Assembly (NCBI RefSeq): GCF_002571385.2
Contig: NW_019218090.1
Span: 96,712-160,711, forward strand
From: Stylophora pistillata
Taxonomy: Eukaryota
Direction of reading: 5' to 3'
DNA: 64,000 nucleotides
A model generated the notes under the pieces. It worked only from the letters and a program-made list of their open reading frames with translations. It was not told where the DNA came from and made no database searches. Both the position numbers and the translations under genes were made by a program. Shown in pieces: positions 46,453 to 46,588 of the stretch; the first letter of the stretch is position 1, and the number at the start of each line of letters is the position of its first letter.

Positions 46453-46453
<1 letters not shown>

Positions 46454-46588
46454 CAAAGACGCGATGCCTCAGCCCCCCAAGTCATTCAAGAGCCATGTTG
46501 TTGACGCTCTAAGAGCATTGCATATGCAGCAGCTTGCTGAAAGGGAGAAAGAAAATCACTTATTAGAAGTAGCGATTTTCTCTTACAT
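46453..46588 (-). promoter_or_regulatory. Cluster of five uORFs in the presumed NLK 5' leader
   Basis: ATG-TAA 46588-46583; MQCS* 46523-46509; MLLERQQHGS* 46518-46486; MALE* 46496-46482; MTWGAEASRL* 46485-46453, whose TGA shares its A with the NLK ATG. The TSS is not known. Confidence 0.6.

What the first reader, a model, noticed from the sequence alone, without database searches (positions are those of the whole stretch)
46453..46588. Relay of overlapping uORFs ending in a UGAUG stop/start on the NLK initiator
Seen: five upstream ATGs within ~135 nt. MALE* ends in AUGA overlapping the start of MTWGAEASRL*, whose stop overlaps the NLK start as UGAUG. A minimal AUG-UAA and two further short uORFs lie upstream, and an in-frame stop prevents N-terminal extension of NLK. 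Established: AUGA/UGAUG overlaps mediate termination-reinitiation in viruses and prokaryotes, and uORFs gate translation of signalling genes. Inference: a translational-coupling or stress-tuned gate on a Wnt/TCF regulator, stacked on the U12 intron. A second in-frame Met (codon 10) offers an alternative reinitiation site.
Basis: partly seen in the sequence, partly recalled or inferred. Interest (0 to 1): 0.7.

Follow-up and report, generated by a model that had tools for sequence, protein, structure and literature searches.

The report
Conserved uORF chain before coral NLK
The coral gene for the signalling kinase NLK has, in its mRNA leader, a chain of tiny reading frames whose stop codons overlap the next start codon; the layout is kept in other stony corals and likely limits how much kinase is made and which of two start points is used.

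Summary
Real, on the minus strand, and in the mRNA. All five uATGs, the AUGA overlap (46496 uORF into 46485 uORF) and the UGAUG overlap on the NLK start (46453) are as described. Spliced RNA assemblies cover the leader unbroken in 4 of 4 runs. In one sequence only the complete chain beats chance (P about 0.008). In 9 of 9 other stony-coral loci, three short uORFs and both overlaps are kept, with stop-to-stop changes (TAG/TAA/TGA; TGATG/TAATG). That is far above intron rate (P 1e-4) but only modestly above the leader's own conservation (P 0.02-0.07; letter test P 0.25). An anemone-like locus has a similar chain in diverged sequence. Not conserved: the AUG-UAA, the 46518 uORF and the in-frame stop. 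One RNA assembly carries an allele that breaks the last overlap. No UGGGA (TURBS) motif is present. Best reading: a short-uORF reinitiation gate (C/EBP-like) that dampens NLK and splits starts between Met1 and a Met near codon 10. A Borna-virus-like coupled relay is possible; stress tuning is untested. Extras: a conserved hairpin, and an ATG-N16-TGCA short-uORF element in 10 of 21 bilaterian NLK leaders.

The parts
46652..46716 (-). Strongly conserved promoter-like/5'-end block (two motifs about 35 nt apart); the main transcription start is likely near here (inferred)
   Evidence: 57 of 65 columns invariant in 7 coral sequences; similar motif pair in L011 and in lophotrochozoan-type loci; X6 contig starts at 46679
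46606..46674 (-).
   Evidence: ATG present in window and L002-L011; in frame with NLK in Acropora/Montipora X1 proteins
46540..46594 (-). Predicted hairpin, 21 pairs, variable 10-nt loop; its 3' arm is the pyrimidine tract that looks like a splice acceptor
   Evidence: -23.3 kcal/mol, z -3.25, 0 of 200 shuffles in the window (stretch chosen after seeing it); z -1.4 to -2.2 in 3 other corals, not in L011; 99.4% of cells paired, 5 one-sided pair-keeping changes, 0 compensatory
46583..46588 (-). uORF1, AUG-UAA start-stop; ATG conserved (inside the hairpin arm), the immediate stop is not
   Evidence: 10-codon ORF in 9 of 9 coral loci
46509..46523 (-). uORF2, 4 codons (MQCS*); start and stop conserved
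   Evidence: stop TAG here, TAA in 8 loci, TGA in L010
46486..46518 (-). uORF3 (10 codons); not conserved
   Evidence: ATG absent in 9 of 9 coral loci
46482..46496 (-). uORF4, 4 codons (MALE*), the only uATG with purine -3 and G +4; its stop overlaps the uORF5 start (ATGA)
   Evidence: kept in 9 of 9 loci, peptide varies MALE/MAQE/MELE
46453..46485 (-). uORF5, 10 codons, stop overlaps the NLK start (TGATG)
   Evidence: kept in 9 of 9 loci, TGATG in 7 and TAATG in 2; allele at 46477 in run X4 makes codon 3 a stop
46469..46471 (-). In-frame TGA 6 codons before NLK; lineage-specific
46299..46453 (-). NLK exon-1 coding part; Met1 (46453) has U at -3
46424..46426 (-). Second in-frame Met (codon 10), U at -3; candidate reinitiation site
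   Evidence: present in 11 of 11 hexacoral sequences; Met at residues 8-17 in 80 of 95 animal NLKs against 1 of 95 at residues 25-34
46864..47688 (-). GT-AG intron joining a distal non-coding exon to a longer, minor leader with further uATGs (46808, 46785, 46720)
   Evidence: joint in 1 of 4 runs (X2)
42855..45850 (-). U12-type GT-AG intron of NLK (neighbouring feature, not part of the uORF chain)
   Evidence: GTATCCTT donor and TTCCTTAAC branch site; exon 3 continues into the exon at 42854 in 4 of 4 runs (loose ends)

Best explanation
This is a transcribed cluster of short upstream ORFs in the NLK mRNA leader, conserved in stony corals, that likely acts as a reinitiation gate which lowers NLK output and likely divides starts between Met1 and Met10. 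Shown: the layout, its presence in spliced RNA, its conservation, and the start contexts (uORF4 strong; Met1 and Met10 both with U at -3). Inferred steps: scanning ribosomes slowed by the hairpin would start mostly at uORF2 or uORF4. After 4 codons the small subunit would stay on the mRNA and resume scanning, reaching Met1 28 nt or Met10 55 nt after the uORF4 stop. Ribosomes that enter uORF5 (by leaky scanning or by restart at the AUGA) would terminate on top of Met1, and would either restart there at low rate or be carried past it to Met10, as the C/EBP uORFs carry ribosomes past the full-length start.
For: Leader unbroken in spliced RNA of 4 of 4 runs. uORF2, 4, 5 and both overlaps kept in 9 of 9 stony-coral loci; changes at stop codons go stop-to-stop while the peptides vary; length changes fall outside the uORFs. 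Chain retention P=1e-4 at intron rate and 0.023 at the leader's own non-punctuation rate (20,000 simulations). Anemone-like L011 has its own ATGA-then-TAATG chain (P 0.005-0.014) in sequence that aligns weakly or not at all; P0175 is compatible with the same chain. In-frame translations from 7 of 7 further coral proteins of Pocillopora/Acropora/Montipora type allow all features, one with a 2-codon deletion that keeps frame. Second Met in 80 of 95 homologues. Precedent: C/EBP uORFs ending 4-7 nt before the full-length AUG shift initiation downstream (PMC3045505, passages); a review argues a 1-nt overlap likely precludes ordinary reinitiation at the overlapped AUG (PMC5972666 section 16).
Against: No translation data at all. 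The whole leader is constrained (101 of 140 columns invariant against 276 of 620 in introns), and punctuation letters are not more invariant than other letters (18 of 24 vs 38 of 59, Fisher P=0.25; triplet test P=0.067). The 9 loci are only two deep lineages besides the window. Run X4 carries an allele that ends uORF5 after 2 codons (1 of 4 runs). P0009 and P0044 (an unnamed coral-type pair) exclude the ATGA at that position. Two N-terminal forms of NLK were not shown to exist or differ.
Confidence: 0.5

Rival explanations
1. Strict coupled relay: the ribosome is handed from uORF4 to uORF5 at AUGA and from uORF5 to NLK Met1 at UGAUG, and this is the main route to full-length NLK, as for Borna disease virus X.
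For: Both overlaps exact in 10 of 10 stony-coral sequences and rebuilt at other positions in L011; TGATG/TAATG exchange keeps the overlap; Met1 context is weak. Borna virus X is translated mainly by restart after an 8-aa uORF with UGAUG (PMC2766071, passages).
Against: No UGGGA core within 260 nt in window, L007 or L010; no conserved structure over -83..+49; X4 allele removes the last overlap; 0 of 21 bilaterian leaders have the chain; an overlap also fits an inhibitory role.
Confidence: 0.2
2. The leader is conserved for something else (RNA-binding sites, the hairpin, promoter-proximal DNA elements); the uATGs and stops are passengers that are mostly scanned past.
For: Conservation is spread over the whole leader; spacer 10 of 12 invariant; Fisher P=0.25; the hairpin explains -141..-87 including uATG1; corals evolve slowly (introns 53-74% identical); X4 allele.
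Against: uATGs are normally purged from leaders (PMC7889888, passages), yet a strong-context uATG is kept in 10 of 10; four stop-codon changes all keep a stop; the chain recurs in diverged L011.
Confidence: 0.22
3. The region is a decayed or lineage-specific N-terminal extension of NLK and is conserved as coding sequence.
For: Acropora and Montipora records list a 493-aa isoform X1, and Pocillopora-type predictions are open for 89 codons.
Against: In-frame stops lie within 25 codons of Met1 in the window and in 9 of 9 loci; the extended predictions use different frames upstream of a 4-nt indel.
Confidence: 0.05
4. A short intron (46586-46537) or an upstream exon spliced to the acceptor-like site at 46537 removes part of the cluster from the mRNA.
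For: Donor-like and acceptor-like letters are conserved.
Against: No such joint or loose end in 4 of 4 runs, although depth-4 variants were retained beside depth 540-648 in X2; unspliced in RNA-type locus L002; the tract is the 3' arm of the hairpin. uORF2-5 would survive such splicing anyway.
Confidence: 0.03

Closest known systems
C/EBPalpha and C/EBPbeta uORF isoform switch (PMC3045505, passages read)
   Same: Short conserved out-of-frame uORF ending next to a full-length AUG in imperfect context, with a downstream in-frame AUG
   Different: C/EBP uORFs end 7 and 4 nt before the AUG, here the stop overlaps it; here several uORFs are chained; the second start is only 27 nt on and removes 9 residues; nothing tested here
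Borna disease virus X/P mRNA (PMC2766071, passages read)
   Same: Short uORF (8 aa there, 10 here) whose stop overlaps the next start as UGAUG, with a further AUG downstream
   Different: Viral; one overlap, not a chain; coupling shown by experiment there, not here
Human SLAMF1 long-isoform leader (PMC5972666 section 16, read)
   Same: Cellular mRNA with several uORFs, the last overlapping the main start by 1 nt (UGAUG); mechanism unresolved
   Different: 29-codon uORF with a UGGGA-like sequence; no AUGA feeder uORF described in that section
Calicivirus / influenza B TURBS termination-reinitiation (PMC5972666, passages read)
   Same: Stop/start overlaps of the same types
   Different: Follows long ORFs and needs the UGGGA core pairing with 18S rRNA; absent here in stony corals
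ATF4 / GCN4 delayed reinitiation (PMC3045505 passages for GCN4; ATF4 layout recalled)
   Same: Several short uORFs ahead of a regulator
   Different: The last uORF overlaps the coding sequence by 1 nt only; spacers of 12-28 nt near the start are short; stress response untested
KSHV ORF35-37 dual uORFs (PMC3561293, abstract only)
   Same: Two short uORFs that repress the first start and allow a downstream start by reinitiation
   Different: Viral polycistronic mRNA with a separate downstream gene

Membership tests
TURBS-type coupled termination-reinitiation | Stop/start overlap | tested here: met
   ATGA and TGATG/TAATG in 10 of 10 stony-coral sequences
TURBS-type coupled termination-reinitiation | UGGGA core upstream of the overlap | tested here: not met
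   0 of 3 stony-coral leaders scanned; one copy at -79 in L011; motif from PMC5972666
TURBS-type coupled termination-reinitiation | Long upstream ORF | tested here: not met
   uORFs of 4 and 10 codons
Short-uORF coupled restart (Borna virus X type) | uORF under 30 codons with UGAUG overlap on the next start | tested here: met
Short-uORF coupled restart (Borna virus X type) | Downstream product depends on termination at the overlap | not testable with these tools
   needs reporters
C/EBP-type uORF isoform switch | Conserved short out-of-frame uORF ending at or near the full-length AUG | tested here: met
   9 of 9 coral loci; broken in one allele
C/EBP-type uORF isoform switch | Imperfect full-length AUG context and a conserved downstream in-frame AUG | tested here: met
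   U at -3 in 11 of 11 hexacoral sequences; second Met in 80 of 95 homologues
C/EBP-type uORF isoform switch | Two protein forms whose ratio depends on the uORF | not testable with these tools
   no proteomic or reporter data
ATF4/GCN4 stress-induced delayed reinitiation | Permissive short uORF followed at a distance by an inhibitory uORF that covers the main start | tested here: inconclusive
   short uORFs present; the last overlaps by 1 nt only
ATF4/GCN4 stress-induced delayed reinitiation | Induction on eIF2alpha phosphorylation | not testable with these tools
   none
Conserved-peptide uORFs | Peptide sequence conserved above nucleotide background | tested here: not met
   uORF4 body 3 of 8 letters invariant; peptides vary while lengths are fixed
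Known Rfam RNA element | Match to a family model | tested here: not met
   one chance-level hit, E=0.6, 20 bits against a cut-off of 279

The most novel reading that the evidence does not exclude
NLK carries an ancient leader module for translational control. A 3-5 codon uORF element is shared by bilaterian leaders and corresponds to coral uORF2, and hexacorals add a two-step stop/start relay (AUGA then URAUG) that hands the same ribosome on to NLK Met1 without a TURBS: a cellular, conserved, chained termination-reinitiation switch that sets the ratio of two NLK N-termini.
Probability: 0.15. Interest if true: 0.8.

Novelty: new variant of a known kind. Interest (0 to 1): 0.5.

Why it matters
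uORF control is common, but a chain of two stop/start overlaps held over deep coral evolution in a cellular mRNA would be a natural test case for an open question: does a 1-nt overlap after a short uORF restart the ribosome or make it skip the start? The 75-nt core is small enough for direct reporter tests, and natural variants (TGATG, TAATG, the truncating allele, the anemone-like arrangement) come ready-made. The separate short-uORF element in annelid-, mollusc- and insect-type NLK leaders suggests translational control of this Wnt/TCF regulator (role recalled) is old; eight literature searches found no description of NLK uORFs.

Tried and rejected
Relative genomes: none held. Own genome: single copy, 1 of 1 match. 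Four RNA runs that held none of the window's words were laid on L010 at 80% likeness: 0 of 4 gave anything, no evidence either way. Prokaryote-genome scan gave 1 weak, uninformative locus; viral contigs 0 of 63 stretches. Cryptic 50-nt intron or trans-splice site at 46537: not seen. Antisense ORF 46464-46643: stopped in L007 and L010. Structure over the whole leader (z -1.31) and over -83..+49 (z -0.89 to +1.35, no compensatory pairs): none. Rfam: nothing. The second TGATG at Met10 is window-specific. Earlier scan notes: nothing in 3 look-ups. Literature: searches (NLK with uORF, start or leader terms; overlaps; conserved or cnidarian uORFs) listed no paper on NLK uORFs, judged from listings and abstract starts. 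The supplement of the animal conserved-uORF survey PMC7530721 could not be read, a Ribo-seq ORF catalogue was not held, and PMC4890304's one readable file had no NLK, so a listing of vertebrate or fly NLK uORFs in supplements is not excluded.

Full report
Observation. NLK lies on the minus strand; its exon-1 peptide is identical to named Stylophora pistillata NLK and the locus is single-copy in G000. One search confirms every element listed: uATGs at 46588 (M*), 46523 (MQCS*), 46518 (10 codons), 46496 (MALE*, ATGA overlap) and 46485 (10 codons, TGATG overlap on ATG 46453), an in-frame stop at 46471-46469 and Met10 at 46426. A further uATG at 46674 was missed. Against 20,000 dinucleotide shuffles, five uATGs (P=0.095) and one overlap on the start (P=0.096) are ordinary; the full chain is not (P=0.008).

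Is it in the mRNA? I laid 4 of the 20 runs that hold the stretch, from 4 coded studies; all are contigs, two only guessed to be RNA, but all four show the exon joints. They cover the leader without a gap to 46731, 46862, 46804 and 46679. The intron-like stretch 46586-46537 is not skipped. In X2 depth falls from 540 (46526-46585) to 68 (46556-46862), and one contig joins a distal exon at 47688, so the main start probably lies within about 100 nt above 46585, near the conserved block 46652-46716. That is inference, because contigs cannot map starts. X4 differs at 46477, which ends uORF5 after two codons and removes the last overlap.

Conservation in stony corals. A metagenome scan matched 497 stretches, confirmed 151 and returned the best 80. 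Nine (L002-L010) are stony-coral-type; they fall into one close group of eight plus L010, so with the window there are three deep lineages. In 9 of 9, uORF2 (4 codons), uORF4 (4 codons, ATGA) and uORF5 (10 codons, stop on the NLK ATG) are intact. The uORF2 stop is TAG, TAA or TGA, and the final overlap is TGATG in 7 and TAATG in 2. The uORF1 ATG is kept but its stop is not; uORF3 and the in-frame stop are absent in all nine. In-frame translations of further corals allow the chain in 7 of 9 proteins tested, exclude the ATGA in 2 (P0009, P0044), and are open in the NLK frame in Pocillopora-type, Acropora and Montipora records; these are compatibility checks, not DNA.

How strong is that? Corals evolve slowly: introns are 53-74% identical between lineages, the last 140 nt of leader 73-92%. 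Using the window plus 6 of the 9 loci (L002, L004, L005 left out as near-duplicates), 101 of 140 leader columns are invariant against 276 of 620 intron columns. Substitution-only simulations keep the chain in 1e-4 of runs at intron rate and 0.023 at the leader's own non-punctuation rate; 4 of 5 ATGs in 1e-4 and 0.038; an empirical triplet test gives 0.003 and 0.067. Letter by letter, punctuation is not more invariant than the rest of -83..-1 (18 of 24 vs 38 of 59, P=0.25). So selection on the leader is clear; selection on the uORF punctuation itself is suggested, not proven. Part of the background is a hairpin at 46594-46540 (z -3.25; 21 pairs, 99.4% paired, five one-sided changes, no compensatory change), which accounts for the acceptor-like tract and for uATG1. 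No conserved structure covers the chain itself.

Further out. L011, an anemone-like hexacoral closest to unnamed P0045, has a 3-codon uORF joined by ATGA to a 14-codon uORF ending TAATG on the NLK start. Its leader aligns weakly or not at all to the coral one (P 0.02-0.9), and such a chain arises in 0.5-1.4% of shuffles; P0175 is compatible with it. Of 70 non-anthozoan loci, 26 had an identifiable Met1 and 21 were kept after dropping 4 near-duplicates and one 28-nt leader: none has the chain, one has a single overlap. But 10 of the 21 share ATG-N16-TGCA with a 3-5 residue uORF, far above shuffles, and a motif pair near the likely start site is shared between corals and lophotrochozoan-type loci. 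One human NLK isoform scores as a predicted short-uORF target (PMC5473865, passages and one supplement row).

Mechanism. uORF4 is the only uATG with purine -3 and G +4 in all 10 stony-coral sequences; Met1 and Met10 have U at -3 in 11 of 11 hexacoral sequences; a second Met at residues 8-17 occurs in 80 of 95 animal NLKs against 1 of 95 at residues 25-34 (many of the 95 are related). I infer a reinitiation gate: most ribosomes spend their first start on a 4-codon uORF, resume scanning, and reach Met1 after 28 nt or Met10 after 55 nt; those in uORF5 stop on Met1. Longer spacers favour reinitiation, and C/EBP uORFs ending 4-7 nt before the full-length AUG shift starts downstream (PMC3045505, passages). 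For SLAMF1 a 1-nt UGAUG overlap is argued to preclude ordinary reinitiation (PMC5972666 section 16). The TURBS core UGGGA is absent from the three coral leaders scanned. The passenger reading holds 0.22. Stress tuning and any link to the U12 intron (45850-42855, spliced in 4 of 4 runs) are untested.

Novelty. uORF gates and UGAUG overlaps on a main start are known. A conserved two-overlap chain in a cellular leader, and uORF conservation in NLK leaders, were not found in eight searches (listings and abstract starts); PMC7889888 was seen in passages and PMC3561293 as abstract; supplements that could list NLK uORFs were partly unreadable. Verdict: real, transcribed, conserved, function inferred; a new variant of a known kind; interest 0.5.

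Noticed in passing
L012, L014-L020, L024, L025, 70-170 nt before NLK Met1: Bipartite element ATG-N16-TGCA in 10 of 21 non-anthozoan leaders; each of the 10 has one such ATG opening a 3-5 residue uORF, in varying frame to NLK. No other spacing from 8 to 25 exceeds 1; the best of any spacing and 4-mer in 500 shuffles reached 5. Found after looking; some loci are related. Coral uORF2 has TCAA at that place, so homology is only a candidate.
   Followed up: partly
window 46652-46716; L003-L012, L014, L018-L020, L024 at -200 to -300: Motif pair (CGTGAC-type, then GCC-R-Y-R-TGTG) 20-35 nt apart in corals, the anemone-like locus and lophotrochozoan-type loci: a possible cnidarian-bilaterian conserved promoter or 5'-end element of NLK.
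   Followed up: partly
window 46540-46594: Conserved predicted hairpin with a variable loop and only pair-keeping one-sided changes; stony corals only.
   Followed up: yes
window 46477: Run X4's contig (depth 42) differs here, turning uORF5 codon 3 into a stop; not seen in X1, X2, X6.
   Followed up: partly
window 46864-47688 and upstream: Distal non-coding exon spliced to a longer minor leader in run X2; a 19-nt block near 47913-47931 is shared with L003, L007, L008.
   Followed up: no
window 42855-45850: U12-type GT-AG intron spliced in 4 of 4 runs; donor letters conserved in the six coral loci aligned; its first 400 nt are more invariant (195 of 400) than introns 1-2 (81 of 220).
   Followed up: partly
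L014, -32 to +1: A lophotrochozoan-type leader has a 10-codon uORF ending TAATG on NLK Met1, the same length and place as coral uORF5; probably chance (1 of 21).
   Followed up: no
human NLK (PMC5473865 supplement file 2, one row seen): At least one human NLK transcript has a predicted DENR-MCTS1 dependence of 15.4% (ATF4 15.8-18.6), which under that paper's formula implies short uORFs; a prediction only.
   Followed up: partly
P0029, P0032, P0039, P0040: Acropora and Montipora 493-aa 'isoform X1' NLK records read through the uORF region in frame; these may be annotation by-products of the conserved uATG homologous to 46674.
   Followed up: partly
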